From NCBI GenBank assembly GCA_012455605.1, contig GCA_012455605.1_3618.1: a stretch of 64,000 nucleotides of DNA; one strand, written 5' to 3'. The notes beneath the pieces are model-generated. The model saw only the letters and a program-made list of their open reading frames with translations. It did no database searches and was not told where the DNA came from. The stretch is from a phage. The position numbers and the translations under genes were made by a program. The stretch's first letter is position 1; each line of letters starts with the position of its first letter. Below, in pieces: positions 1-30,601 of this stretch.

Positions 1-957
1 ATGGCGTATTTAAAAGTTTTGATGGACGAGATTTTTGGTCGTGCAAATCAGTTAAATACCATATCGATGACCACAAATTCCCCTTCGGGATTTAAGGCAA
101 CAGGAGCCACAGTTTTCTCCACAGCAAACTTTTTGCTTGTATATGCAAAAGATCGCACCCAGAAGCCGCTTAACAAAATCTATATACCTAAAGGGTATGA
201 TACCGGATATAACAAATACCTATTAAACCCGGATGACCCTTATAAAAATTGGACGTGGTGCGGTATTGCCGATGCGTTTGCAAAGGCCAATGGCTATAAA
301 GATGCAAAAGAAGCCAAGAAAAAACTGCCTGACACATTCGATGATGAATTAGCACAATTTGCAATTGATAATGCAGAACGTGTATTTCAATCTGTTGCAA
401 TTGGTGGTGGTGCTAAAATAAAGAGAAAAGAAACTATAGAGAAGTCAAAGAAAGATAGGGATAAGGTTTATGTACATCCAAATGAGGATGTTGAAGGATT
501 TTATATCGCAAATGGTAGGCAAATGGTCTTTTACTCCAATAGGCTTTTGGAAATTGACGGTGAGATGCAACCTGCGGAACTAATAACTGATGTTTGGACA
601 GACATTAGTTGGAATGGAATAGCAAATGAAGGCGGCGTTAGTTTCAAAAATGGAAAAAAACCAGAAGCGCTTTTGAAGCGGATTTTCGAAATGTGTACGC
701 GAGAAGGCGATTTGGTATTGGATTCATTCGGTGGTTCGGGAACTACTGCTGCTGTAGCTCACAAGATGAAAAGACGTTGGATCTCCATCGAGATCGGTGA
801 TCATTGCCATACCCATATTATTCCGCGCTTGGAAAAAGTGATCGATGGGGAAGATCAAGGTGGTATTTCTAAGTCTGTAAACTGGCAAGGTGGTGGTGGC
901 TTCCGTTATTACAAACTTGCCCCGACCTTAATTGCGAAAGATAAGTCTGATCAATAA
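1..957 (+). CDS. DNA methyltransferase (N6-adenine/N4-cytosine, beta-class-like); may be 5'-truncated by the window edge
   Basis: C-terminal motif I LVLDSFGGSGTTAAVA typical of the N6_N4 MTase family; no DPPY motif seen in the 318 aa, so the gene may start upstream of the window. Confidence 0.7.
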   Translation: MAYLKVLMDEIFGRANQLNTISMTTNSPSGFKATGATVFSTANFLLVYAKDRTQKPLNKIYIPKGYDTGYNKYLLNPDDPYKNWTWCGIADAFAKANGYKDAKEAKKKLPDTFDDELAQFAIDNAERVFQSVAIGGGAKIKRKETIEKSKKDRDKVYVHPNEDVEGFYIANGRQMVFYSNRLLEIDGEMQPAELITDVWTDISWNGIANEGGVSFKNGKKPEALLKRIFEMCTREGDLVLDSFGGSGTTAAVAHKMKRRWISIEIGDHCHTHIIPRLEKVIDGEDQGGISKSVNWQGGGGFRYYKLAPTLIAKDKSDQ

Positions 958-2219: not shown

Positions 2220-2984
2220 TTGAAATTTATCTATAAAGAACACTACCACAAAGGTGTTGTGTGGAGTCTATTTGACGGATCTGGCGGTGCAGTCATTGAC
2301 TGGGCAAAAGCTGGATATCTGTGCCTGTGCTTTAACGCAGAAGGTGCTGACCACGGCAGTTATGCAGAGGTGATCACCGATCATCCAAATATTCACTATG
2401 TAGATTATTGGATTGATCCATGGTTCCCTCAGGAAACTTTCTGCATGTACCCAGCTCCGGACTTTGTTCTTGCATTTCCTCCGTGCACCCACTTAGCGGT
2501 GTCAGGTGCTGCACACTTTAAGAAGAAGCTGGCTAAGGACCCGCTGATCCAGATTAATGCTGTAAAGGATGCTCGGGTTGCAGAAGAGTTGGGAGAGATT
2601 TACGATTGCCCGTGGCATGTAGAGAATCCTGTGGGTGTTATGTCCACACTGTGGCGCAAACCTGATTACCGTTTTCACCCTTCTGACTATGGCGGGTATT
2701 TACCGGAGGATGATGTAAACCCCTGGTTTCCTGAATTTATAGCTCCACGTGATGCCTATCCAAAAATAACTTGCGGCTGGATAGGTAATGGATTTATAAT
2801 CCCGGCCACAAAACCTGTCCCGCAAATAGTTGACGCGGTTAGCGGGTATTCCATGCAACACGCCAAGCTGGGTGGAAAGAGTGCAAGAACAAAGATGATT
2901 CGAAGCCTCACACCACGTGGCTGGGCAAAAGCCGTATTCTTAGCAAACGAGCCTGTAGTAAGGAGCAGAATTAATGGGAAGTAA
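2220..2984 (+). CDS. C5-cytosine methyltransferase-like protein (atypical)
   Basis: Motif I-like SLFDGSGG, motif IV-like FPPCTHLAVSGA (PC-T rather than PC-Q), ENV-like HVENPVG, in the order and spacing of C5-MTases; only 254 aa. Confidence 0.5.
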   Translation: MKFIYKEHYHKGVVWSLFDGSGGAVIDWAKAGYLCLCFNAEGADHGSYAEVITDHPNIHYVDYWIDPWFPQETFCMYPAPDFVLAFPPCTHLAVSGAAHFKKKLAKDPLIQINAVKDARVAEELGEIYDCPWHVENPVGVMSTLWRKPDYRFHPSDYGGYLPEDDVNPWFPEFIAPRDAYPKITCGWIGNGFIIPATKPVPQIVDAVSGYSMQHAKLGGKSARTKMIRSLTPRGWAKAVFLANEPVVRSRINGK

Positions 2985-5052
2985 ATTTATGGCATCTGCA
3001 TACAACCGTTTCGGTGAGCCAAACCCGAAAGCAACTAAGTATAAAAGTGGGGGAAGTGTGAAACGAGACTATCGTGATGAAAAAGAAGTTGAAACTGTAG
3101 AGACTGTTTTAGAAAATACTAAAATTGTCCCTGTCCCACAACAAAATATCGGTCTGATGGCTGCACAATATTTTGGTGTGCGATCAGCATTGTCCCAAGA
3201 AGACGGTGTGACAGTTACTGCAACATATTTCCCATATTACGACCGCTACGGAAATCTGTCAGGTTTCAAAAAGCGTGACTGGACGATTCCTAAAGAGCAA
3301 AGGGGCCATTTCTCCGTTGTTGGCATAGTAAAGGCTAACTCCCAGATGTTTGGGCAAAAGCTGTGTGCATCTTCTAACAACCGTAAGCAGATTAACGTTT
3401 GTGAGGGGGAAGGCGATGTTATTGCAGCATGGCAGGCTGCATATCAGATACAAGTAAAAGGGATTCTCACCAACGCTAAAGCCCCGGCAAAGGTGAAACA
3501 GTGGGCTAAAGAGGTCCAGGACGGGATCGATGCAGTTATCAACGGGGGTGACCTGGCAGGAAAACCCTGCCTGCCTTTTGTTGGAATTAACTGTGGATGT
3601 GCAAACGCAGTAGATACTTTTGCAAACAATGAGAAATTTATCCGTAGCTACGGAACAGTGGTCCTTGCAATGGACAACGATGCGGCTAACGAGGTAGAGA
3701 AGCAAAAACACGTTATCAAAGGTGTTGAAGCCACACATAATATTGCAGCATTTTTGATGGCTGACAACGTTTACCACGTGGAATATCCTGGCGAGGTAAA
3801 CGACCCTGATGGTGTAAAAGATATCCGTGACATGCTGAAGGCTAAAAAGCTGGAAGATATTGTAAACATGTTCCGGCATCCTGTTAAGTATGTGCCTGAT
3901 GCTGTGTCGGATTTAGAAGACTTCTCTATCGAATCTTTGCGGAAAAAGACTTCCAACGGGGTAGATATCAGCGCAGAGTTTCCAAAACTGCAAAAAATGC
4001 TAAAAGGCTTGCACAAAGGGACACTCGTAATGCTTACAGGTCCATCAGGAGGTGGTAAAACAACTGTAGCCAAAAAACTGGAACACTGTATTGCAAGATA
4101 CCTAATGGACCCGACATGTCCAAAGGCCGATGACTACGAAGAGGATGATCGTCTATGCATGATTCATCTTGAGGAGGACCCAGAGGAAGCAATTAACTCC
4201 TTGTATGCAAACCAGTTAGGGTTTGATGTTAAAGAGTTTGTTGAAGATCCTAGCCAGTTTCTAACTGATCAAGAACACGCAGAGATTCACCAATCATGGG
4301 CAAAAGCTGGAAAAATCAAAGTGTTCAAACATTTCGGATCTATTCCGGTGGACGAGTTGATTACCAAGCTTAAGCAAATGGTTTGCCTGTACCATTGCCG
4401 TTATATTGTGCTGGATCACCTGTCTATGGTAATTTCAGGGCTTAATGTTAAGGATGAGCGAAAAGAACTGGACATGGCTATGACCCAACTGGCTGCGTTT
4501 TGTAAGCAGTTTAACGTGTTTATCCTAGTGATCGCTCACCTCAAACGTACAGAGATTGTGCCTCCTAAGGACAAGGATGGTAACCCGTTACCTTTCTGGT
4601 ATCCTGTGCGAAAAGAGAATTTGCGAGGATCGGCTGGGCTTGAACAGTTGAGTTGGGTAGTCATAGGTGTTGAGGCTGAAGAAATGGTAGATCGTTCTCG
4701 TGGGCGTGTCCGTTTAGTAGGTCTTAAAAACCGTCCAGCAAAAACATTGGGTATTGCGGATACTTTGGTTATGGACCCGCATACAGGTAAGTTCCATGAT
4801 GCCAGTAATTGGTACTGGGACAAAGAAATGCAGATGTTTACAGACGGAGAAGGTGGGGAGGTTGTTTGGAGACCTCAGGCCATGTTTGAGGACCAAGAGC
4901 ATGCAGTTGTAGAAACACCTATGGGCAAGGTTGTAGCGGATAAGGTTGTAACTCCTACTATTAAGCCTGTTGACACGCAGGAAGACCTCCAGTACGATGA
5001 TCCATCCTCTGATCCGGTCCCCGGTTTTGAAGATGATGAAACACCTTTTTAA
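2974..5052 (+). CDS. DNA primase-helicase (TOPRIM primase fused to DnaB-like helicase)
   Basis: TOPRIM CEGEGD and LAMDNDAANE; Walker A GPSGGGKTT; Walker B IVLDHLS; acidic C-terminus ending EDDETPF. Confidence 0.85.
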   Translation: MGSKFMASAYNRFGEPNPKATKYKSGGSVKRDYRDEKEVETVETVLENTKIVPVPQQNIGLMAAQYFGVRSALSQEDGVTVTATYFPYYDRYGNLSGFKKRDWTIPKEQRGHFSVVGIVKANSQMFGQKLCASSNNRKQINVCEGEGDVIAAWQAAYQIQVKGILTNAKAPAKVKQWAKEVQDGIDAVINGGDLAGKPCLPFVGINCGCANAVDTFANNEKFIRSYGTVVLAMDNDAANEVEKQKHVIKGVEATHNIAAFLMADNVYHVEYPGEVNDPDGVKDIRDMLKAKKLEDIVNMFRHPVKYVPDAVSDLEDFSIESLRKKTSNGVDISAEFPKLQKMLKGLHKGTLVMLTGPSGGGKTTVAKKLEHCIARYLMDPTCPKADDYEEDDRLCMIHLEEDPEEAINSLYANQLGFDVKEFVEDPSQFLTDQEHAEIHQSWAKAGKIKVFKHFGSIPVDELITKLKQMVCLYHCRYIVLDHLSMVISGLNVKDERKELDMAMTQLAAFCKQFNVFILVIAHLKRTEIVPPKDKDGNPLPFWYPVRKENLRGSAGLEQLSWVVIGVEAEEMVDRSRGRVRLVGLKNRPAKTLGIADTLVMDPHTGKFHDASNWYWDKEMQMFTDGEGGEVVWRPQAMFEDQEHAVVETPMGKVVADKVVTPTIKPVDTQEDLQYDDPSSDPVPGFEDDETPF

Positions 5053-5110: not shown

Positions 5111-7540
5111 ATGAGCATGTGGTCGTTCGATTTTGAGTCATCCGGTTTGCTGGAAGACCCAGATCTTTATTATCACTGCGGTCTGTTTAAAGAGTTGAAT
5201 AAGAACCGTTTTATGCTGTTCCTTCCTCTAAATGACCGCACACACTACTCCGAGGAGGATATAGAAAAGGCTAAGAACTTCATTCTGGCAAAGAAAACTC
5301 TTTATAAAGATTTTGAAGTTCGCATAGCAGATTTTTCGGAGTTGGAAGGTTGGCTTACAGGAAATTCTGACTGGTCACCAACAGCTTTGAACTGCCATAA
5401 CTGCTACAGTTATGACTTTATGCTGATGGAAAGATTATCCGGTATTCATTTTGATATGTTCCGTGATCCTAAATGTATGGGGACTATCAACGACCACCAG
5501 GTTAACCTGTTCGATACGTTGGCAATGAGCCGAATCTTGTGGCCTGATCGCCCTTTACCGAAAGGTTGTCCGGACTCTGTATTCAACCCGGTTACTAAAA
5601 AAATGCAGCCTGTTGGTCCTCACGGCCTTATGGCATGGGGCTACGCTCTTGGTAACCAGAAAGTTCAAATTGATGACTGGCGCGATCTTCCGTTGTGGAA
5701 GTATGTGGATCGTGTATTCGAGGACGTTATCATCCAGGAGCTGCTCTGGAAAGAGCTGGTAGCGGAATCAAAAGGTGTATTCTACGGCAAATCTGACATG
5801 CAGAACTTTATGTACGATCCTGCCAAAGAGAAGCCGAAAGGATTCAAGAAGATCACCTGGAAGAACGCATTACGTCGAGGCATGCTGCAGCACTTCCTGA
5901 TGGAGCTGCAGGCCCGTCAGGGCGTATACTTCGACATAGATGGAGCTATTGCTTTACGTGACCGTTGCGATGCGTGGATGAAAGAAATCGCTGATCGTGT
6001 TGAACCACAACTGCCTTTAAAAGAACTGTCAATGTCTCAGCGGCCCAAGTTCCCTGAAAAGCCGTTTAACCAAGACGGGACAATCTCTAATAATGGTTGG
6101 AAATGGTTAAAAGATAAGCTTGGCTATCCTGTAGACATGAGCGCTTTAGAGTTCAAAGCCCCGCCTAAGAGAGCATTTACCTCTACAGGAGATGTCAGCA
6201 AGATGGGGATAAAATGGTGTGAAGAGATGGGATGCAAAGACCCCGATAAGATGGCTGATTTCTTGAGAGGCTATATTAAGGGCACTTCCACACCACACCC
6301 TTTGCCTAAAGAGTTGATGGATCAGGCAATAAGTGATCTACAGCAGAAGCGAATGCCGGACTGCAAGATACCTATGAAAATCAGCAACCAGGACGACATT
6401 AAGCGATACCTGATCAGTGCTGGCTGGCTTCCGACAATGTGGAGAACTAAGGATGTAACTAAAGACAGCAAGAAGAAAGCTTTACCTGATGCAGATGTTG
6501 ATGCACGAGTATATGCATATATGGACGAGCTTTTGGAGTCAGAGTATTGTGACCTAATTATCAACTTCTGGAACAAAACTGATGCTAAGTTCCAGACAAC
6601 CGTGCACAAGTTCCGAAGCTTTCCTAACTCCGAAAGGATTAAAAAGGAAGTATTCGGGAAAATACGTAGAAAAGCCAGGGCACTTATTACTTCTCCGCAA
6701 CTGAAAGATACGTTTGGACACCTATGCCCAAATCTTGAAAAATTGAACGGAGAGATGGCTAAAGATATCGTCTTGTGGTTATCATTGCGAAACCGCAGAT
6801 CGGTCCTTGATCCAATCAAGGAGGATAAGGTTGATACTGGTCTTCTTAATCACCCACGTTTGAAGATTGACCATAAGCTTCCTGCTAAAAGCTCTGGATT
6901 AACAAACACTTCCAGACAGAAACACAGTATTTGTGCAAACATGCCTAAACCATCTCCTAAAGTAGTTATGGGTAAAGAGATGCGTAGTCTGTGGGGTGTT
7001 CCTCCAGGATACTTTGAGATCGGTATTGACGGGTCCAACTTAGAGCAGCTTATCGGGGCTTGGGGTGCCTTTGAGTTCGACAACGGCCTGTATTACGATG
7101 TTGTAAGTAACGGAGACGCACACCAAAACAATGCTGAGGCATATACAAAAGTAGCAGGCAGAGAGGTGTCTCGTAACGACGGTAAACCTATCACGTATGG
7201 GGTTATGTATGGGGCACAAAAAGATAAAGTTGCAGATATGCTGGACATCTCTCCAGAGTTGGGACAAAGGGTAATCGATGCACTCTGGGATGCCAACCCT
7301 GGTCTTAAGGGGCGTAAAGAAGATCTGGAGAAATTCTGGGAAGCAACGGGTAAGAAGTTTATCTACTCTTTTGATGGTCATGCTATCTGGACCCGATCTA
7401 AACACTCTTTACTTAATGCATACCAACAAAATGGCGGCGCATCGTTGTGTGACTTAGTTGGGATACTCATGCACCATCAAATGGTGAAGCGTGGGTGGTA
7501 CGATGAAGGTGTTCGTCGTATTATTTATTACCATAAATAA
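5111..7540 (+). CDS. DNA polymerase, family A, with 3'-5' exonuclease domain
   Basis: Exo I FDFESSG, Exo II YSYDF; motif A-like IDGSNLEQL; motif B-like RNDGKPITYGVMYGAQ (T7 Pol-like). Confidence 0.8.
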   Translation: MSMWSFDFESSGLLEDPDLYYHCGLFKELNKNRFMLFLPLNDRTHYSEEDIEKAKNFILAKKTLYKDFEVRIADFSELEGWLTGNSDWSPTALNCHNCYSYDFMLMERLSGIHFDMFRDPKCMGTINDHQVNLFDTLAMSRILWPDRPLPKGCPDSVFNPVTKKMQPVGPHGLMAWGYALGNQKVQIDDWRDLPLWKYVDRVFEDVIIQELLWKELVAESKGVFYGKSDMQNFMYDPAKEKPKGFKKITWKNALRRGMLQHFLMELQARQGVYFDIDGAIALRDRCDAWMKEIADRVEPQLPLKELSMSQRPKFPEKPFNQDGTISNNGWKWLKDKLGYPVDMSALEFKAPPKRAFTSTGDVSKMGIKWCEEMGCKDPDKMADFLRGYIKGTSTPHPLPKELMDQAISDLQQKRMPDCKIPMKISNQDDIKRYLISAGWLPTMWRTKDVTKDSKKKALPDADVDARVYAYMDELLESEYCDLIINFWNKTDAKFQTTVHKFRSFPNSERIKKEVFGKIRRKARALITSPQLKDTFGHLCPNLEKLNGEMAKDIVLWLSLRNRRSVLDPIKEDKVDTGLLNHPRLKIDHKLPAKSSGLTNTSRQKHSICANMPKPSPKVVMGKEMRSLWGVPPGYFEIGIDGSNLEQLIGAWGAFEFDNGLYYDVVSNGDAHQNNAEAYTKVAGREVSRNDGKPITYGVMYGAQKDKVADMLDISPELGQRVIDALWDANPGLKGRKEDLEKFWEATGKKFIYSFDGHAIWTRSKHSLLNAYQQNGGASLCDLVGILMHHQMVKRGWYDEGVRRIIYYHK

Positions 7541-7674: not shown

Positions 7675-8181
7675 ATGGCTAGATCAGTTGATTATCACGG
7701 ATATACCGTGTTTGATGATGGAACAATACCTTTATCGAAACGTGATCATACAACAATGTTTTGTTTTGATAATGGTCGAGGTTACCTTTGCGTAACCATG
7801 TTCATCGAAGGGAAGCAGTGCACAAAAGGTGTCCACCACTTGGTTGCCGAATGCTTTGTATCAAACCCTGATCCTGAAAGGCTCACATGGGTGAACCATA
7901 AGGACGGAAACAAATACAACAATGCATACTGGAACCTTGAATGGACCACCCCTGGTGGAAATATCAAACACGCTTATGATAATGACCTCAGAGTAAGGCC
8001 AGTCGGTGAGTATAATGCCAACGCTGTGCTGACCGAGGATGAGGTAACGGAGATTTGCGAGCTGTTACAGAGTGGTCTACGACAATGCGAGATTAGGGAT
8101 CTTGGGTACCCTTATGAGACGGTCAGAGCCATAAAGCAAAGAAGACAGTGGAAACATATCTCTAAAAACTACACCTGGTAG
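7675..8181 (+). CDS. HNH homing endonuclease (HNH_3/NUMOD-like)
   Basis: VNHKDGNKYNNAYWNLEW HNH motif; N-terminal YHGYTVFDDG; sits directly after the polymerase gene. Confidence 0.75.
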   Translation: MARSVDYHGYTVFDDGTIPLSKRDHTTMFCFDNGRGYLCVTMFIEGKQCTKGVHHLVAECFVSNPDPERLTWVNHKDGNKYNNAYWNLEWTTPGGNIKHAYDNDLRVRPVGEYNANAVLTEDEVTEICELLQSGLRQCEIRDLGYPYETVRAIKQRRQWKHISKNYTW

Positions 8182-16204: not shown

Positions 16205-16394
16205 GCTTAAATCTGCATGGAACATCGCTGTGGGGGACGAGATCCGTATCCCAGGTGGAAAGACCATTATGAAGATATCTCGTATCGAGTACGAAGGTGA
16301 TCGTGTATTTCATATCTTTGCAGAGGATGGTCGAGAAATTTATATACAGGCAGGCTCTCACATCTATATTCGTAAGAAAGGGGACGACAAATGA
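16191..16394 (+). CDS. hypothetical protein
   Basis: 67 aa, AGGAGG ribosome-binding site. Confidence 0.4.
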   Translation: MQMFKLKSAWNIAVGDEIRIPGGKTIMKISRIEYEGDRVFHIFAEDGREIYIQAGSHIYIRKKGDDK

Positions 16395-16720
16395 CAGAGA
16401 TCATCATTTCAACTGCAGGGTATGTGTTCCTGACAATCATTGCACTGACCATTCTGGTGGTGGTATATGGAATTGTTATTCTCCCTATTCTTGAGACAAT
16501 TAGTTTGTGTCGGTGTTGGAGAAAGGCTTACGGTCCACAGCCGTGGAAGGACTGGCCCCACCTGGTGCACATAGCGTTCTCTTATGCTTATGATCACGCC
16601 AGCAGTGCATGCATAACCGGGTATCACGCCCACAACTGGAGCTGGGAAGGGTTGAGGAAATGGAATGTTACAAAGACCATACCTCTGCGCATGTACAAAC
16701 CTAAAAACAAAGACAGCTAA
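16391..16720 (+). CDS. putative membrane protein
   Basis: Hydrophobic N-terminal segment VFLTIIALTILVVVYGIVILPIL. Confidence 0.45.
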   Translation: MTEIIISTAGYVFLTIIALTILVVVYGIVILPILETISLCRCWRKAYGPQPWKDWPHLVHIAFSYAYDHASSACITGYHAHNWSWEGLRKWNVTKTIPLRMYKPKNKDS

Positions 16721-16739
16721 TACTTGAAAATTCCTGGCA

Positions 16740-17300
16740 TATCAAGTATAAGGGGGATTTCTAAAATGGATTTCCTCCTTTTGATATTTCACCGGGCCGG
16801 ATATTTTAAAATTCTTAGAAAATCAGAAAATGGATCGAAAACTAAAATGGATTTTTCAGAGTAGGCGCGACAAGCTGAATAACTCATCCTATCGTTTGCA
16901 CCATATTCCAGGCCACCATTATAGATTTCCCACACATGCTAACCTCTCTCTACTAGAACTTCCTCCACTTACCCTTGACCTTCTATGGTAACAATCTAAC
17001 CGCTATCTTGAAGTTGCGGTGCAGCTTTCCAGGTACTCGATCTACTTTTCATTTCAGGGCTTGGATTTTCTGAAAATTTTTCTCGATAAATTTCTCAGTA
17101 CTCGATCTGTTTTTCGTTTTCTGAATCGGATTTTCTGGAAATCGTTCCGGCTCTCAACCTGAAATTTTGGGGACGAAATCGATTTTTCGTTTTCAGAAAT
17201 GGATTTTTAAAATTTCTATATGGGAATATTTTAGTGGATACTATTTTATAGTAAATTGTTACGGAGGGTAATTAGCGTGCTAATTAAATTTATTAAATGC
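16740..17300. repeat. non-coding direct-repeat region (AAATGGATTT and TACTCGATCT-T-rich units)
   Basis: At least 4 copies of AAATGGAT(T/C), 2-3 of (G)TACTCGATCT(A/G)TTTT, 2 of GGATTTTCTG(G)AAA; no credible ORF. Confidence 0.6.
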
Positions 17301-17355
17301 GAGGAGTTCTCATTTAGAATTTTGAATGATAATCATTCTCGTTTGCAGAATAATG

Positions 17356-17377
17356 GGCAGGCCCGGTGATTGTCTCC
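17356..17377. other. conserved element GGCAGGCCCGGTGATTGTCTCC (copy 1; variant at 17498-17512)
   Basis: 22 nt recurs exactly in inverted orientation at 26837-26858. Confidence 0.5.
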
Positions 17378-17735
17378 CGGCCCCTGCTGCCCCGGCTTGT
17401 TATTATAGTATCACACAGGACAAAGAAAGCAAGGATTTTTTGCATAAACTTTTAAATGATAATGATAACCGTTCTCATTTTATGCAGCGCCCATCCCCGG
17501 TGGTTGTCTCCCCCGTCACCGGTGCCTGTCGTCCTTTCGATAGGTATATTGTGCCACCTGGCGGGGCCGCTGTCAACACTTTTCAAAAAATTTTTCTAAC
17601 CTGATGCGCTAACCGCTGCAACCTGGCGGGGCCAGCCTGGCAGGACCTAACTGACCAGGTAGGAGAGAATGAAGGCTTGTAAACCTGGTGGGCCTATGCT
17701 ATAGGAGAAGTAACAATTGAAGAGGAGGTACAAAA

Positions 17736-17912
17736 ATGGAAGGTAATATGATCCCCCTGGAAAATGTAGCTATTAATGACGCTGAGGCTATCGCCCTGGT
17801 TGAAAAGGCTATGGCGGGAGCGTTGGAATATAAAGAAGAGTACGAAAAAATGATGGTTAACCTGGCAGGGGTGGCGGCTGGAGAATTCCGCCCAAAAAAT
17901 AATTTTAACTAA
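17736..17912 (+). CDS. small hypothetical protein (58 aa)
   Basis: ORF below the track cutoff; GAGGAGG 7 nt upstream of the ATG. Confidence 0.4.
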   Translation: MEGNMIPLENVAINDAEAIALVEKAMAGALEYKEEYEKMMVNLAGVAAGEFRPKNNFN

Positions 17913-28126: not shown

Positions 28127-28144
28127 TTTCTTAACTAAACTATC

Positions 28145-28172
28145 AGGGGCTTTAAAAGGCCCCTTTCTTTTT
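28145..28172 (+). terminator. rho-independent terminator (AGGGGC-TTTAAAAG-GCCCCT then TTCTTTTTG)
   Basis: Stem-loop and T-tract closing the plus-strand block. Confidence 0.6.
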
Positions 28173-28559
28173 GTCTGTATTTCTCCTACCACAAACGGCC
28201 CAGCCTGGCAAGTGGAATAATTGACTAGCCATCAATCCCACACACTGTACAAACATACATGTAAAATAACTATTGCATAATTTTTCATTGTGTGGTAGCA
28301 GGGCCATTTTTACCCGTTTTCTCTCTCAAAATTGCACGTAATGCCGCTATTGCACAAAATTTAACCTGATGCACATCTTCAATATCTTGTCAACAACTAA
28401 AAATCTTTATAAGTCATACACTTACACACTCACAAAAGCGTGTTCTACGTGAAAAATCGAGTATAACTATAGCCGCCAGATCTCAGAATTTACGTACGCT
28501 CACCATTCTATAGTCTGCTAAGTATTTATTCCAACCATAGAATAACGGAATAGTCAATA

Positions 28560-29440
28560 CCTGCATAAAATAATTATTCGTGTAAACTGCATAACATAAA
28601 TCAGCTTATGTGTCAACATTCTTGGTAAACAGTCCGAAATTGTAATGGTAAGTTATAATAAACAGAGAAATCTTTAGTCGTCTAATGTTTACTGTACATA
28701 ACTATACTGACTGGAATCATTAGATGACTAAGAGAAAGATAAGAAATCATTAACAATGCAATTGTTTTATTCGTAACAATAAGGCAACTATGCAAACGAA
28801 TGGCATGGCGCGACGGAGTCGCGACATAATATAAAAGCAGTAACCATCACCCCCGTGATAGTTTGTCTGCAAACTATTAATCAGATCATAGTTGCCTTGT
28901 ATTTAGTTAATCATGACATAACAAGCAAGGCAACTATAGATCTTCTAATAGTTGCCCTGCTTTTATATTATGTCATCTATTGTAAACAAGTTAATTATTG
29001 TCATGCAAACGAATGTCATGGCTTATCATTTTTGAGTAAACAATCTATGCGTGAACAGTTAGCTATGTAAACTATTAGACATGTAAACTATTGAGAATGT
29101 AAACAGTAAAGGGAGTGAATAGTGATAGCGTAAACAGTCAGGCATGTCAATTATGTTCAGTGTCACCATTATGTCATATTGTGTCACAGTATGCCCAGTA
29201 TGTCAGACAAGTTTTTCTCCTCTTTGTCAAGTGCTGCATGAAAAATTTACAATCTGGTATGGTAGCATTTTTGCGGCCCTGTTTACATTCAGTTGTGTAT
29301 GTATAAGCCTTGTTGTGTGGGCGTTTAGACGTCTAGACGGTTGGAAGTCTACAGGTCAATATCTAATCTATTGGTTGCTAACTATATCCCACACAAATAG
29401 TAAGAAATATAATTGTTATGTGTGTAAACTGTAACTCATG
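28560..29440. repeat. AT-rich iteron-like region (TGTAAAC units, AAGGCAACTAT inverted repeats)
   Basis: At least 10 (A)TGTAAAC(A/T) units including three tandem at 29063-29108; AAGGCAACTAT forward at 28781 and 28927, reverse at 28888 and 28948; GCAAACGAATG(G/T)CATGG twice. Confidence 0.6.
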
Positions 29441-29699
29441 TTATCAATCCCTGTATGGATCGCCAGTGGTGCGCATAATGGGTATTATGTTAAATTGCCC
29501 GTAATGATAACAGTTCTCACAATGATAGGTATTCTCATTCAATCCCACAAGATAGGTTGCAAATGTTGTGCCACTGTGTGAACGGCCTCACCTATTAATT
29601 TGCCACACTGCCCCGATATTTGAGAATTGTTATAAGAATGAGAATGATTCCCATTTCGTCCGCCTGGCAGCACTCCAGTCGCTACCGCTCATAACAGGG

Positions 29700-30260
29700 C
29701 AGAACTAGACCCTCTTCAGATATTTCTGGCTGACTCTTCAGGTCTGTGTGGGAAAAGCCAACCTCTCCGGCGGGAAGGGGGGGTCAATTAAAAAATTTAC
29801 GGGGTATATGAAGCGCTCTTCAGGTAAGGCATGTATTATGGGATGAAACCCTCTTCAGGCAATGATATTTGTGGGTGTGATATTTGCTGGAAAGCCAGAT
29901 ATGACGGGACTCCCGGCGGGGCAGGGGTAGTACAGGAAGGGAAAATATGGGGATGTAGTTGGGGAAATTGATCAGACAGGTGGAGTATAGTATATGTTAC
30001 AAGTATGTTAAATATGGATGGTGAATATCTATAGGATTTGTGTGTAAAATCAAAGACTTAAGTGGTGTTGTGGTATTTTCTATAAATAATTCAAGTTTAA
30101 TAGGGAATATTTGTCAGAAAGGTAGGTTCAGGTTATTTAAAGTTGTATTTCAGATGCATGTTTACAGAAGCAGGTAACCCCCCTCCCCCTTCGGCTACCA
30201 TTCACCTTTTCCTCTAACTGGTACTTAAACACTTATTCAGACTCTTCAGGTTATCACCCA
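29700..30260. repeat. CTCTTCAG(G) repeat cluster with G-rich inverted repeats
   Basis: Copies at 29712, 29735, 29816, 29851, 30242 (a sixth at 30890); CGGCGGGAAGGGGGGG near 29770 versus CCCCCCTCCCCCTTCGGC near 30178. Confidence 0.55.
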
Positions 30261-30601
30261 TATATCATATGGCAGTGACTGGTGTCCTCAGGCCCCTCTT
30301 TCGTCACCCGTCCGCTTCGCCATGCTAATGCCATAGCCAGTGGTTCGGTTGTTCACCCTGTTCACTCAGGTGTATCTCCATACCCCTTCAAACCGAAGAG
30401 AACAGAAAACCCGAATTACTCGGTAAAAGAAAAGAGAAGAACTTAATTTTATCAGGATAGGCAAGAATGTCAAGGCATGACTGCTCACTAAACAAGCAAA
30501 CAGTCATGTGTGGGAGGTAAGTGATTGTGGTGGTAGGAAATTTAGTTGAAAGATGTGTTATAGGTGCTCCCAGCACTTTTAGCCGGGCAGCTAGTTGTGT
30601 G

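What the first reader, a model, noticed from the sequence alone, without database searches (positions are those of the whole stretch)
16740..17300. A 560 bp non-coding direct-repeat region inside the plus-strand gene block
It contains repeated AAATGGATTT units, two to three copies of (G)TACTCGATCT(A/G)TTTT(C)(A/G)TTTTC and two of GGATTTTCTG(G)AAA, with no ORF or RBS signal. It could be a second iteron set (origin or regulatory site) or a transcribed non-coding RNA locus.
Basis: seen in the sequence. Interest (0 to 1): 0.5.

Follow-up and report, generated by a model that had tools for sequence, protein, structure and literature searches.

The report
Essential non-coding repeat region, likely origin
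The flagged repeats are real and belong to a 1-kb non-coding control region that is conserved across a whole group of E. coli-type phages and cannot be disrupted by transposons. It is most likely the phage's DNA replication origin, placed next to binding sites resembling those of the host iron sensor Fur.

Summary
The window is a Vequintavirus (rV5-like phage, closest to FFH2). The repeats at 16740-17300 are real and non-random. They lie in a 1,015-bp gap (16721-17735).

No ORF in the gap behaves like a gene. Frames break in relatives, variation shows no codon periodicity, and two of the three annotated ORFs checked have no Shine-Dalgarno sequence.

Six Vequintavirinae genera share the same architecture with fixed spacing, while the flanking genes share no detectable protein similarity. 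The parts are:
- short GATATTT and GAAATGGWTTT repeats;
- a spacer that varies in sequence but not in length (about 190 bp);
- exactly three composite units (17033, 17098, 17171);
- the least stable DNA duplex in the 64 kb (17190-17340);
- 19-bp palindromes matching the E. coli ryhB Fur operator at 21-22 of 23 bases;
- minus-strand sigma-70 promoter-like sites pointing into the AT-rich stretch.

No Rfam family matches, and no conserved RNA structure appears on either strand.

A 2025 transposon map of Vequintavirus Bas54 gives 0 of 11 TA sites hit across unit 3 plus the AT-rich stretch. Both flanking genes are dispensable.

Best reading: an essential cis-acting DNA element, probably a transcription-activated replication origin (confidence about 0.45). 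Rivals are an essential leftward non-coding RNA and a packaging site.

The parts
16717..16752 (.). Inverted repeat (ATACTTGA / TCAAGTAT, 14-nt loop) directly after the stop codon of the upstream gene (16391-16720). It may be a bidirectional transcription stop at the left edge of the gap.
   Evidence: I8. A different sequence occupies this position in L007 and L008. Function is inferred only.
16755..16860 (.). Left repeat block. It holds GATATTT twice (16783, 16800) and GAAAATGGATTT-type 11-12-bp repeats (AAATGGATTT at 16764 and 16845, variant at 16829).
   Evidence: Pairwise diversity in 11 Vequintavirus genomes is 0.056, against 0.149 in the adjacent coding sequence. The same motif classes occur in other genera.
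16861..17030 (.). Spacer 1. Its sequence varies freely (diversity 0.254, C-rich on the + strand) but its length is invariant.
   Evidence: The distance from the last AAAnSGnTTT motif to unit 1 is 189 bp in all 11 Vequintavirus genomes, with compensating indels in L007 and L008. It is 190-194 bp in four further genomes from three other genera (Seunavirus, Mydovirus, Henunavirus). There is no convincing RNA structure.
17033..17097 (.). Composite repeat unit 1 (GTACTCGATCT-ACTTTTCATTTC-...TTGGATTTTCTGAAAATTTTTC).
   Evidence: Positional counterparts exist in six genera.
17098..17170 (.). Composite repeat unit 2 (GTACTCGATCT-GTTTTTCGTTTTC-...TCGGATTTTCTGGAAATCG).
   Evidence: Units 1 and 2 correspond to bas54_0100: 3 TA sites, 1 hit, mean count 5.
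17171..17235 (.). Composite repeat unit 3, degenerate at its 5' box (GGGACGAAATCGATTTTTCGTTTTCAGAAATGGATTTTTAAAATTTC).
   Evidence: (D1). It lies in the interval with 0 of 11 transposon hits in Bas54.
17190..17340 (.). AT-rich stretch (23-26% G+C). It is the least stable duplex of the whole 64-kb window and the candidate DNA unwinding element.
   Evidence: global minimum at window sizes 60, 100 and 150. 17167-17271 corresponds to bas54_0101, called 'Essential' with 0 of 11 TA sites hit.
17296..17314 (.). Weak copy of the 19-bp palindrome (AATGCGAGGAGTTCTCATT, 4 mismatches), 29 bp before the next copy.
   Evidence: The 29-bp spacing recurs in other genera.
17325..17343 (.). 19-bp palindrome AATGATAATCATTCTCGTT, a Fur-box-like operator. 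With its flank it matches the E. coli ryhB Fur operator at 21 of 23 bases (minus strand).
   Evidence: (4 sites in the window, 0.04 expected), (0 of 300 shuffles reach the score).
17322..17354 (+). Weak +-strand promoter-like site overlapping the palindrome. By eye it reads TTGAAT-18-CAGAAT (17322-17351). The tool reports ATGATA-17-AATAAT (17326-17354).
   Evidence: TTGAAT and CAGAAT are conserved in 8 of 9 genomes across genera. Function is inferred.
17355..17398 (.). G+C-rich hairpin-forming segment with the invariant core CCGGTGATTGTCTCC (17363-17377).
   Evidence: (D5). The core sequence is conserved across genera but the stems are not consistently conserved.
17402..17432 (-). Minus-strand promoter-like site P_L1 (TTGCTT-19-TATAAT), reading leftward toward the palindromes, the AT-rich stretch and the units.
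   Evidence: Read from the sequence. The spacer is long in this genus. The counterpart in other genera is TTGCAA-17-TATATT, found by the tool; SSE121 has TTGATC-16-TATTAT at that position.
17461..17479 (.). Second strong palindrome, AATGATAACCGTTCTCATT. It is followed by a second CCGGTGGTTGTCTCC module (17496-17512), so the operator-hairpin module is duplicated 136 bp apart.
   Evidence: (D5, D9).
17548..17600 (-). Strong minus-strand promoter-like site P_L2 (A/T-rich upstream element, TTGACA-17-TG-n-CACAAT), reading leftward.
   Evidence: 10 of 12 matches, TG present. Counterparts were found by the tool in CR8, SSE121 and BIS47. Its upstream/-35 part resembles the ryhB promoter upstream region at 17 of 19 bases.
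17601..17735 (+). Spacer 2, rich in indels, with a weak rightward promoter-like site (TTGTAA-17-TATAGG, 17677-17705) and the Shine-Dalgarno sequence of the next gene (17736-17912).
   Evidence: 68 of 145 columns carry gaps. A better counterpart, TTGACC-17-CACAAT, is present in CR8.

Best explanation
The flagged repeats are the protein-binding part of an essential, cis-acting, non-coding DNA element. I think this element is most likely the phage's origin of replication, of the transcription-activated type.

Proposed working, from right to left in window coordinates:
1. Host RNA polymerase starts at one or more minus-strand sigma-70 promoters (P_L2 at 17576->17548, P_L1 at 17432->17402) and transcribes leftward.
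2. The transcript passes the 19-bp Fur-box-like palindromes (17461, 17325, 17296), where a bound protein could gate passage. That protein is probably host Fur, or else a phage repressor.
3. It then enters the most easily melted DNA of the region (17190-17340), opening it or leaving an RNA primer.
4. The three composite units (17033, 17098, 17171) and the left repeat block (16755-16860) are held at a fixed distance of about 18 helical turns. They bind a still unidentified phage or host protein that organises the DNA and recruits the phage's T7-like primase-helicase and DNA polymerase.

Shown:
- the repeats are real;
- coding signal is absent;
- the architecture and spacing are conserved across genera;
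- the AT-rich stretch is the stability minimum of the window;
- the palindromes match the ryhB operator;
- transposon insertions are not tolerated in a close relative.

Inferred: promoter activity, protein binding, and the link to replication.
For: 1. Non-coding. Every candidate ORF is broken, shifted or absent in some relative. Variation is spread evenly over the three codon phases, whereas the adjacent real gene shows 7, 7 and 16 variable sites by phase. The three ORFs annotated in Bas54 have no Shine-Dalgarno sequence.

2. Strong selection on the DNA. Pairwise diversity is 0.056 (left block), 0.060 (three units) and 0.032 (palindromes and promoters). The flanking coding sequences give 0.149 and 0.082, and spacer 1 gives 0.254.

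3. Deep conservation of the architecture. Exactly three units with the core G-K-W-CTCGATC-N3-TTTTC...CGTATTYTC (or TGGATTTTC) at 63-78 bp spacing occur in Vequintavirus, Seunavirus, Mydovirus, Certrevirus and Henunavirus. Phapecoctavirus has a different repeat pair at the same place. The flanking genes share no detectable protein similarity.

4. Length-invariant but sequence-free spacer. It measures 189 bp in all 11 Vequintavirus genomes despite indels, and 190-194 bp in three other genera. The distance from the last GATATTT to unit 1 is 234-235 or 247-249 bp across genera. This is expected for a DNA architecture and not for a gene.

5. Physical properties. 17190-17340 is the least stable duplex of all 64 kb at three window sizes. 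The region has the highest A4/T4-tract density in the window.

6. Promoter-like sites. In this gap and its counterparts most lie on the minus strand, although one to three also lie on the + strand in each scan. At the two homologous positions, P_L1 and P_L2, the minus-strand sites recur across genera.

7. Replication proteins. The phage encodes a T7-gp4-like primase/helicase (2974-5052) and a PolA-type polymerase (5111-7540). No origin-binding initiator was found, though only a few proteins were scanned. In T7 itself the primary origin is two promoters followed by an AT-rich segment (established knowledge).

8. Experiment, in Bas54/MaxBurger, which is 92% identical here (bioRxiv 10.1101/2025.11.20.689424):
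- 17167-17271: 0 of 11 TA sites hit;
- 17016-17162: 1 of 3 TA sites hit, mean count 5;
- 17326-17599: 5 of 15 TA sites hit, mean count 12.7;
- gene to the left: 18 of 21 hit, mean count 220;
- gene to the right: 12 of 14 hit, mean count 152;
- next six genes downstream: all called non-essential (6/6 to 27/27 TA sites hit), so polar effects do not explain the gap.
Against: - No replication data exist for this locus. The rV5 authors found no skew signal here (PMC3606486).
- A second non-coding region (28130-30600) is also free of insertions in Bas54 and could equally be the origin.
- The units are 40-65 bp long and 63-78 bp apart. This is unlike classical 17-22-bp iterons in helical register.
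- No initiator gene is adjacent, and no DNA-binding protein was identified.
- No DnaA or IHF sites are conserved.
- P_L1 has a 19-bp spacer in this genus. All promoters are consensus predictions only.
- The transposon data are at gene level, from a preprint. They do not cover 16722-17015.
Confidence: 0.45

Rival explanations
1. An essential leftward non-coding transcription unit. P_L2 and P_L1 (plus a third promoter in some genera) would produce a 0.5-0.8-kb RNA covering the palindromes, the AT-rich stretch, the three units and the left block, ending at the hairpin at 16717-16752. The RNA itself would act, for example as a regulator, a sponge or an antisense partner of a +-strand small RNA, and the repeats would be linear RNA motifs.
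For: - Minus-strand promoter-like sites are conserved in four genera.
- Spacer 1 is G/U-rich on the minus strand. It gives a better consensus fold there (-14.2 kcal/mol, 6 pairs with changes on both sides) than on the + strand (-5.2, none).
- One substitution in the small hairpin near 17270-17290 is tolerated as G:U only on the minus strand (by eye).
- The region is essential and is not explained by its neighbours.
Against: - The repeat block has no consensus structure on either strand (-4.3 and -3.6 kcal/mol over 241 columns, covariation term about 0).
- Folding z-scores are -0.03, -0.60 and -1.38.
- The count of pairs changed on both sides in the spacer is within the shuffle range (151 of 500).
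- There is no Rfam match.
- An unstructured RNA spacer would not be expected to keep an exact length through compensating indels.
- The insertion-free core is the AT-rich stretch and unit 3 rather than the promoters.
Confidence: 0.22
2. A DNA packaging recognition site (pac) or other terminase or genome-end signal. The repeats and A-tract-rich DNA would be bound by the small terminase, as at the SPP1 and P1 pac sites.
For: - It is an essential cis-acting non-coding DNA with several classes of direct repeats, A/T tracts and fixed spacing.
- rV5-like genomes are described as circularly permuted, which implies headful packaging from a pac site (PMC3606486).
- GATC pairs 21 bp apart occur inside units of several genera (by eye).
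Against: - The locus lies in the early-gene block, tens of kb from the terminase operon, which is at position 1 of Bas54 while this locus is at 81 kb. Known pac sites usually lie in or beside the small terminase gene.
- Promoters directed into a stability minimum have no obvious role in packaging.
- Record ends in GenBank show no consistent relation to this locus.
Confidence: 0.1
3. An architectural or decoy region that binds host factors. Many copies of Fur-type operators and A/T-tract repeats on replicating phage DNA would titrate Fur or nucleoid proteins and so reprogram host iron uptake or transcription. Alternatively, the region is only the regulatory region of a Fur-controlled phage small RNA.
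For: - The palindromes match the strong ryhB Fur operator at 21-22 of 23 bases (PMC2189734).
- Copies also occur in the second non-coding region (29521, 29637).
- In other genera a +-strand terminator-like hairpin lies about 195 nt downstream of the operator-overlapped promoter. It shows compensatory changes in Hena1.
- The phage carries an iron-dependent ribonucleotide reductase.
Against: - A decoy would not need three individually conserved units at fixed spacing.
- A single insertion would not inactivate a decoy, yet 0 of 11 sites are hit.
- The most insertion-sensitive part lies outside the palindromes.
Confidence: 0.08
4. The region encodes small essential proteins, as annotated in several records (for example bas54_0100, bas54_0101 and bas54_0102, or FFH2 ORF179-181).
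For: - ORFs of 30-92 codons are present and annotated.
- Two of them are called essential or strongly defective in the transposon screen.
- The 92-codon frame is also open in CR8 and Hena1.
Against: - Annotations disagree between records in position and strand.
- The bas54_0101-type ORF is absent in FFH2 and DrSchubert and shorter in others. The 30-codon and 92-codon ORFs carry a stop or a frameshift in rV5_ev156. The 32-codon ORF stops after 7 codons in DrSchubert.
- There is no third-position excess of variation in any frame, within the genus or across genera.
- None of the three annotated ORFs has a Shine-Dalgarno sequence.
- The repeats are out of frame with one another, at spacings of 65 and 73 bp.
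Confidence: 0.04

Closest known systems
Phage T7 primary origin (tandem promoters phi1.1A and phi1.1B followed by an AT-rich segment) and T4 oriF/oriG (promoter plus downstream unwinding element)
   Same: - One or two promoters point into the most AT-rich, least stable DNA.
- The phage has a T7-type primase-helicase and a PolA-type polymerase.
- No initiator protein was found among the few proteins scanned.
   Different: - The promoters here are host sigma-70 type and are only predicted.
- Beyond the AT-rich stretch lies a large array of conserved repeats with fixed spacing.
- Operator palindromes lie between the promoters and the AT-rich stretch.
- T7 and T4 tolerate loss of a single origin, whereas this locus does not tolerate insertions.
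Iteron-type origins (lambda ori, P1 oriR, pSC101, R6K gamma)
   Same: - Same-orientation direct repeats flank an AT-rich unwinding region.
- As in pSC101, three repeats are followed by inverted-repeat operators at a promoter.
- Several classes of short repeats are present in one non-coding region.
   Different: - The units are 40-65 bp composites spaced 63-78 bp apart, not 17-22-bp iterons about 22 bp apart.
- The three units are individually distinct and positionally conserved across genera rather than homogenised.
- No Rep gene lies next to the element, and the binding protein is unknown.
E. coli ryhB promoter and its Fur operator (Fur box)
   Same: - TGCAAAYGAGAATGATTATCATT on the phage minus strand matches TGCAAATGAGAATGATTATTATT at 21-22 of 23 bases.
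- The A/T tract and -35 of P_L2 resemble the ryhB upstream region at 17 of 19 bases.
- The motif is a 19-bp palindrome of Fur 7-1-7 type.
   Different: - There is no RyhB-like RNA (no Rfam hit).
- The operators occur as arrays at 29-bp spacing.
- They lie about 50-75 nt downstream of the strong leftward promoters rather than over a -10 element.
- Binding by Fur is untested, and a phage repressor is not excluded.
pac sites of SPP1 and P1
   Same: They are repeat-rich, A-tract-rich, essential cis-acting DNA of a few hundred bp. GATC-containing repeats are present in some genera.
   Different: This locus is not near the terminase genes. It carries promoter-like sites and a stability minimum. No cleavage or terminus data exist.

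Membership tests
Iteron-type replication origin | Three or more direct repeats in the same orientation within a non-coding region | tested here: met
   Three units lie at 17033, 17098 and 17171. There are three in each of six genera.
Iteron-type replication origin | Short repeats (about 17-22 bp) spaced in helical register (about 11 or 22 bp) | tested here: not met
   The units are 40-65 bp long and spaced 65 and 73 bp apart (63-78 bp in other genera).
Iteron-type replication origin | An adjacent AT-rich DNA unwinding element | tested here: met
   17190-17340 is the global duplex-stability minimum of the 64-kb window, at 23-26% G+C.
Iteron-type replication origin | A cognate initiator (Rep) gene encoded next to, or containing, the repeats | tested here: not met
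   - The flanking genes are not conserved between genera.
- The gene of about 280 aa upstream in other genera has no Pfam domain and no homologue in the window.
- Nothing nearby is annotated as an initiator or regulator.
Iteron-type replication origin | Initiation of DNA synthesis maps to the site, or the site drives replication of a test plasmid | not testable with these tools
   This needs marker-frequency sequencing, 2D gels or a replication assay.
Transcription-activated origin (T7 primary origin, T4 oriF/G type) | Promoter(s) directed into an AT-rich, easily unwound segment | tested here: inconclusive
   Consensus scans place minus-strand promoter-like sites upstream of the AT-rich stretch in the window and in three other genera. 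No transcript data exist.
Transcription-activated origin (T7 primary origin, T4 oriF/G type) | A replisome that can use an RNA polymerase transcript without a dedicated initiator (T7-like primase-helicase plus PolA) | tested here: met
   A primase/helicase is encoded at 2974-5052 (E 6.6e-160) and a DNA polymerase at 5111-7540 (E 1.1e-90).
Transcription-activated origin (T7 primary origin, T4 oriF/G type) | Cis-acting requirement for phage growth | tested here: inconclusive
   Published transposon data show 0 of 11 hits in 17167-17271, with dispensable flanks. Cis versus trans action has not been tested.
Fur box (operator of the Fur regulon) | A 19-bp palindrome close to GATAATGATAATCATTATC or to validated Fur sites | tested here: met
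   - By eye, 15-16 of 19 bases match the consensus.
- 21-22 of 23 bases match the gel-shift-validated ryhB site, and 0 of 300 shuffles reach that score.
- The window holds 4 sites against 0.04 expected.
Fur box (operator of the Fur regulon) | Binding by Fur-Fe2+ and iron-dependent regulation | not testable with these tools
   This needs a gel-shift or footprint assay and infection of a fur mutant or of iron-starved cells.
Known RNA family (Rfam) or structured non-coding RNA | A match to a curated covariance model | tested here: not met
   There are 0 matches at the gathering score in the window. The only match at E<5 is a 20.8-bit chance hit. Five related loci give 0 matches.
Known RNA family (Rfam) or structured non-coding RNA | A conserved secondary structure supported by covariation and stability | tested here: not met
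   - Units: -4.3 and -3.6 kcal/mol, with no covariation.
- Spacer, minus strand: the signal is weak and does not exceed the controls for the number of pairs changed on both sides.
- Folding z-scores range from -0.03 to -1.38.
Protein-coding gene | A reading frame kept in relatives, excess third-position variation and a ribosome-binding site | tested here: not met
   

The most novel reading that the evidence does not exclude
A virulent phage makes an essential genome function depend on the host iron sensor. A replication origin, or an essential long non-coding transcript, would be gated by an array of Fur operators whose sequence, together with part of the adjacent promoter, looks as if it was taken from the host ryhB locus. 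Phage DNA replication would then be tuned to iron supply, which also limits the phage's own iron-dependent ribonucleotide reductase. The three fixed-spacing composite units would define a new class of origin-organising repeats for phages with T7-like replisomes.
Probability: 0.2. Interest if true: 0.8.

Novelty: new variant of a known kind. Interest (0 to 1): 0.62.

Why it matters
Vequintavirinae are among the E. coli, Salmonella and Klebsiella phages most often isolated, and they are used for biocontrol and therapy. Their origin of replication and early regulatory circuitry are unknown.

- **Essential 'genes' that may not be genes.** Two 'essential genes of unknown function' in the first genome-wide transposon map of such a phage are probably not genes. 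They appear to be parts of a non-coding element conserved across at least six genera. This changes how the essentiality map should be read.
- **A region to preserve.** It marks a stretch that must be kept intact in engineered or synthetic genomes.
- **A testable origin candidate.** The locus can be tested directly as a replication origin.
- **A possible link to host iron.** The Fur/ryhB-like operators suggest a testable connection between host iron status and the development of a strictly lytic phage. I found no report of this in the searchable literature.

Tried and rejected
- **tRNA or tmRNA:** none found.
- **Rfam:** nothing at the gathering score or at permissive thresholds, in the window or in five related loci.
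- **Coding:** rejected.
- **Structured RNA in the units:** rejected on both strands. The spacer's minus-strand fold looked promising but did not exceed the controls for pair counts, and its z-score is -0.03.
- **A-tract phasing at about 10.5 bp:** only the 93rd percentile, not significant.
- **GATC clustering:** 3 sites against about 2.2 expected in the flagged region, so no enrichment.
- **Host-factor motifs, examined by eye:**
  - DnaA box: one 7-of-9 match at 17234, not conserved in the alignment.
  - IHF: not conserved.
  - CsrA GGA motifs: present in this genus, but replaced by CGTATT in other genera.
  - T7 primase sites: GGGTC occurs only in Certrevirus units.
  - oriC 13-mers: a resemblance only.
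- **A conserved neighbouring gene as the binding protein:** none found.
- **Copies of the element in E. coli chromosomes, satellites or plasmids:** none found. The single 'plasmid' hit is a phage genome.
- **Unit pattern in IMG/VR:** found only on Vequintavirinae-sized contigs.
- **Literature searches** for a described origin, transcriptome or Fur link in these phages found nothing, apart from the transposon study.
- **Per-site transposon counts** for this locus are not held in the stored supplement, so only gene-level values were available.
Full report
**Context.** The window is a Vequintavirus (rV5-like myovirus). The 1.5 kb around the finding is 98.6% identical to phage FFH2 and matches 124 phage records. 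On the + strand, the block from 1 to 28126 carries a T7-gp4-like primase/helicase (2974-5052), a PolA-type DNA polymerase (5111-7540) and many small early genes. The minus-strand block from 64000 down to 30602 carries the ribonucleotide reductases, thymidylate synthase and other genes. The finding lies in a 1,015-bp gap between the gene ending at 16720 and the gene starting at 17736. A second, 2.5-kb gap (28130-30600) separates the two converging blocks.

**Observation.** The repeats are as described.
- AAATGGATTT occurs three times, all in this region (16764, 16845, 17197). 0.46 are expected and 0 of 100 shuffles reach 3.
- A 57-nt repeat lies at 17026-17082 and 17091-17147 (74% identical, 65 bp apart). 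A third, degenerate copy is at 17171-17207.
- GGATTTTCTG occurs at 17063 and 17128 as part of that repeat.
- The region has the highest density of A4/T4 tracts in the window (99.8th percentile).

**Not coding.** Small ORFs exist and are annotated inconsistently, on either strand, in different records.
- In an 11-genome alignment, none is conserved as a frame.
  - The 32-codon ORF at 16766, the only one with a Shine-Dalgarno-like sequence, stops after 7 codons in DrSchubert.
  - The 53-codon ORF at 16830 is frame-shifted in three genomes.
  - The ORF at 17167-17271 is missing in FFH2 and DrSchubert.
  - The ORFs at 17277 and 17326 carry a stop or a frameshift in rV5_ev156.
- Variable sites are spread evenly over the three codon phases in every candidate frame. 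The adjacent real gene shows 7, 7 and 16 variable sites by phase.

**Conservation within the genus.** The gap is a mosaic. Pairwise diversity is:

| Segment | Coordinates | Diversity |
|---|---|---|
| Upstream coding sequence | 16642-16720 | 0.149 |
| Left repeat block | 16755-16860 | 0.056 |
| Spacer 1 | 16861-17030 | 0.254 |
| Three units | 17031-17230 | 0.060 |
| AT-rich spacer | 17231-17290 | 0.136 |
| Palindromes and promoters | 17291-17590 | 0.032 |
| Spacer 2 (68 gapped columns) | 17591-17735 | 0.106 |
| Downstream coding sequence | 17736-17800 | 0.082 |

Spacer 1 changes freely in sequence but not in length. The distance from the last left-block repeat to unit 1 is 189 bp in all 11 genomes, and DrSchubert and isim reach that value through compensating indels.

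**Conservation across genera.** Distant BLAST first showed only about 17284-17441 as conserved in other genera. Reading the homologous gaps showed the same architecture in Seunavirus (SSE121, LNA4), Mydovirus (BIS47), Certrevirus (CR8, PcCB7V, F2M1E) and Henunavirus (Hena1). A variant is present in Phapecoctavirus (phiWec186). From left to right the parts are:
- two to four GATATTT motifs;
- 11-12-bp GAAATGGWTTT-type repeats;
- an unconserved spacer of 190-194 bp, with the distance from GATATTT to unit 1 at 234-235 or 247-249 bp;
- exactly three composite units 63-78 bp apart, with the core CTCGATC-N3-TTTTC...CGTATTYTC, or TGGATTTTC in Vequintavirus and Henunavirus;
- a short AT-rich stretch;
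- one to five 19-bp palindromes AATGAGAATnATTCTCATT, often 29 bp apart;
- a conserved CAGAAT..GGGCA..CCGGTGATTGTCTC segment;
- two minus-strand sigma-70 promoter-like sites, found by the scan tool in CR8, SSE121 and BIS47 and in the window.

Each unit resembles its positional counterpart in other genera more than it resembles its neighbours, so the triplication is old and each copy is maintained. The protein-coding genes flanking the gap share no detectable similarity between genera. The non-coding element is therefore better conserved than its neighbours.

**RNA tests.**
- No Rfam family matches.
- The three-unit block has essentially no consensus structure on either strand: -4.3 and -3.6 kcal/mol over 241 columns, with a covariation term near 0.
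- Spacer 1 folds better as minus-strand RNA (-14.2 against -5.2 kcal/mol). However, the number of pairs with changes on both sides is within the shuffle range (151 of 500). The helices are short and rich in G:U pairs, and the single-sequence z-score is -0.03.
- The whole flagged region gives z-scores of -0.60 (minus strand) and -1.38 (plus strand).

I therefore treat the repeats as DNA-level sites. An unstructured transcript cannot be excluded.

**DNA properties.** The least stable duplex of the entire 64-kb window, at window sizes of 60, 100 and 150 bp, lies at 17190-17340, between unit 3 and the palindromes. Its G+C content is 23-26%. In most other genera the lowest-stability segments of the 5-6-kb loci also fall inside the gap.

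**Fur/ryhB link.**
- The palindrome occurs four times in the window against 0.04 expected: at 17325 and 17461, plus 29521 and 29637 in the second gap. A weak copy lies at 17296.
- A search of 5,426 E. coli genomes hit the yhhX-yhhY intergenic region, which is the ryhB promoter.
- Local alignment shows that the phage minus strand matches the ryhB operator TGCAAATGAGAATGATTATTATT at 21-22 of 23 bases in five genomes from four genera, including the window (18-19 of 23 in phiWec186, 16 of 18 in CR8); 0 of 300 shuffles reach the score in six of the seven genomes aligned (1 of 300 in CR8). The A/T tract and -35 of P_L2 match the ryhB upstream region at 17 of 19 bases.
- The ryhB site is a 25.2-bit Fur site confirmed by gel shift (PMC2189734).
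- Binding of Fur to the phage sites is an inference. I found no report of Fur boxes in lytic phages.

**Experimental evidence from the literature.** A 2025 preprint (bioRxiv 10.1101/2025.11.20.689424) mapped Himar1 insertions in Vequintavirus Bas54 (MaxBurger). I fetched that genome. It is 92% identical to the window here, and I mapped its annotated ORFs onto the window. The TA-site counts I computed equal those in the supplement.

| Bas54 feature | Window coordinates | Content | TA sites hit | Mean count | Call in the screen |
|---|---|---|---|---|---|
| bas54_0099 | 16391-16720 | upstream gene | 18 of 21 | 220 | Non-essential |
| bas54_0100 | 17016-17162 | units 1 and 2 | 1 of 3 | 5 | not classified |
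| bas54_0101 | 17167-17271 | unit 3 plus AT-rich stretch | 0 of 11 | 0 | Essential |
| bas54_0102 | 17326-17599 | palindromes and promoters | 5 of 15 | 12.7 | Strong fitness defect |
| bas54_0103 | 17736-17912 | downstream gene | 12 of 14 | 152 | Intermediate |

The next six genes downstream are all non-essential, so polarity cannot explain the result. The authors count these ORFs among essential genes of unknown function. [quoted passage not shown] Together with the evidence against coding, this makes the core of the flagged region an essential non-coding element.

**Interpretation.** The features are:
- several classes of direct repeats at fixed spacing;
- a spacer that is constrained in length but free in sequence;
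- the stability minimum of the window;
- promoter-like sites pointing into that minimum;
- a T7-like replisome, with no initiator protein found among the few proteins scanned;
- intolerance to insertions.

An essential cis-acting DNA assembly site explains these best. I commit to a transcription-activated replication origin as the most likely function (0.45).

The main rivals are:
- an essential leftward non-coding RNA (0.22);
- a packaging site (0.10);
- a host-factor decoy or small-RNA regulatory region (0.08);
- real micro-proteins (0.04).

The second gap is equally essential and could be the origin instead. One of the two gaps may be the origin and the other the packaging signal.

**Comparison with known systems.** The element works most like the T7 primary origin or the T4 oriF type, where promoters sit next to an unwinding element. 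It also resembles iteron origins such as pSC101, which has three repeats followed by operator palindromes at a promoter. It fails two defining features of iteron origins, repeat size and phasing and an adjacent Rep gene, so I do not file it as a member. The palindromes meet the sequence definition of a Fur box, but binding is untested.

**Caveats.** All promoters are consensus predictions. P_L1 has a 19-bp spacer in this genus and the rightward promoter at 17677-17705 is weak. The transposon data are gene-level values from a preprint and leave 16722-17015 unscored. No replication, transcript or binding data exist for this locus.

Noticed in passing
window 17296-17343, 17461-17479, 29521-29539, 29637-29655: 19-bp palindromes (consensus AATGAGAATnATTCTCATT) are nearly identical to the Fur operator of the E. 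coli ryhB promoter (21-22 of 23 bases with flank). They are arranged at 29-bp spacing in several genera and occur only in the two large non-coding regions of the window.
   Followed up: partly
window 28130-30600: A second, 2.5-kb non-coding region lies between the converging gene blocks. It holds its own direct repeats (for example ATGCAAACGAATGKCATGGC twice, CTCTTCAGG motifs, AACTATnnATC..ATAGTTGCC twice) and two of the palindromes. The Bas54 transposon study reports no insertions in the homologous region of about 2 kb.
   Followed up: partly
L012 about 3069-3268; L014 about 2540-2735; L013 3130-3240: In genera other than Vequintavirus, a conserved block of about 85 nt (CTACCGGCGATCCACCTTCC...GTTAGCCCCGCCTTTTCGCCGTGGGGTGGCG) ends in a +-strand terminator-like hairpin. 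The hairpin has G:U pairs only on the + strand and shows compensatory changes in Hena1. Together with the operator-overlapped promoter about 195 nt upstream, it looks like a Fur-controlled phage small RNA. The window has a second palindrome-hairpin module at this position instead.
   Followed up: partly
L034 (MaxBurger) 776-1365; L012 2627-2971; L018 2185-2816; L001 2990-3806: Many GenBank records annotate 'hypothetical protein' genes over this non-coding element, on different strands and in different frames. BIS47_205 covers all three units. bas54_0101 and bas54_0102 are therefore listed as essential genes in the transposon study.
   Followed up: yes
PLSDB record CP057073.1, 17143-17997: A 137,565-bp 'non-mobilizable plasmid' of E. 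coli from cattle faeces matches this region at 93% over 99% of the query. Its size also fits a Vequintavirus genome deposited as a plasmid.
   Followed up: no
phage records MG0656xx: Sixteen records named 'Campylobacter phage', with host given as C. jejuni, are 95-98% identical to this E. coli phage region. The host assignment looks doubtful.
   Followed up: no
window 1-957 and 2220-2984; whole window: In the DrSchubert counterpart, the genes aligned to these window positions are annotated as an N6-adenine methyltransferase and a Dcm-like methyltransferase. GATC is over-represented in the window (358 found, about 250 expected).
   Followed up: no
window 5111-7540 and 7675-8181: The DNA polymerase ORF is 809 codons here and is followed by a separate 168-codon ORF. 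In DrSchubert the polymerase gene is annotated as a single 925-codon gene. This could reflect a split, an insertion or a frameshift.
   Followed up: no
L014 1393-1980: In Salmonella phage SSE121 an HNH endonuclease gene sits directly against the left edge of the homologous non-coding region.
   Followed up: no
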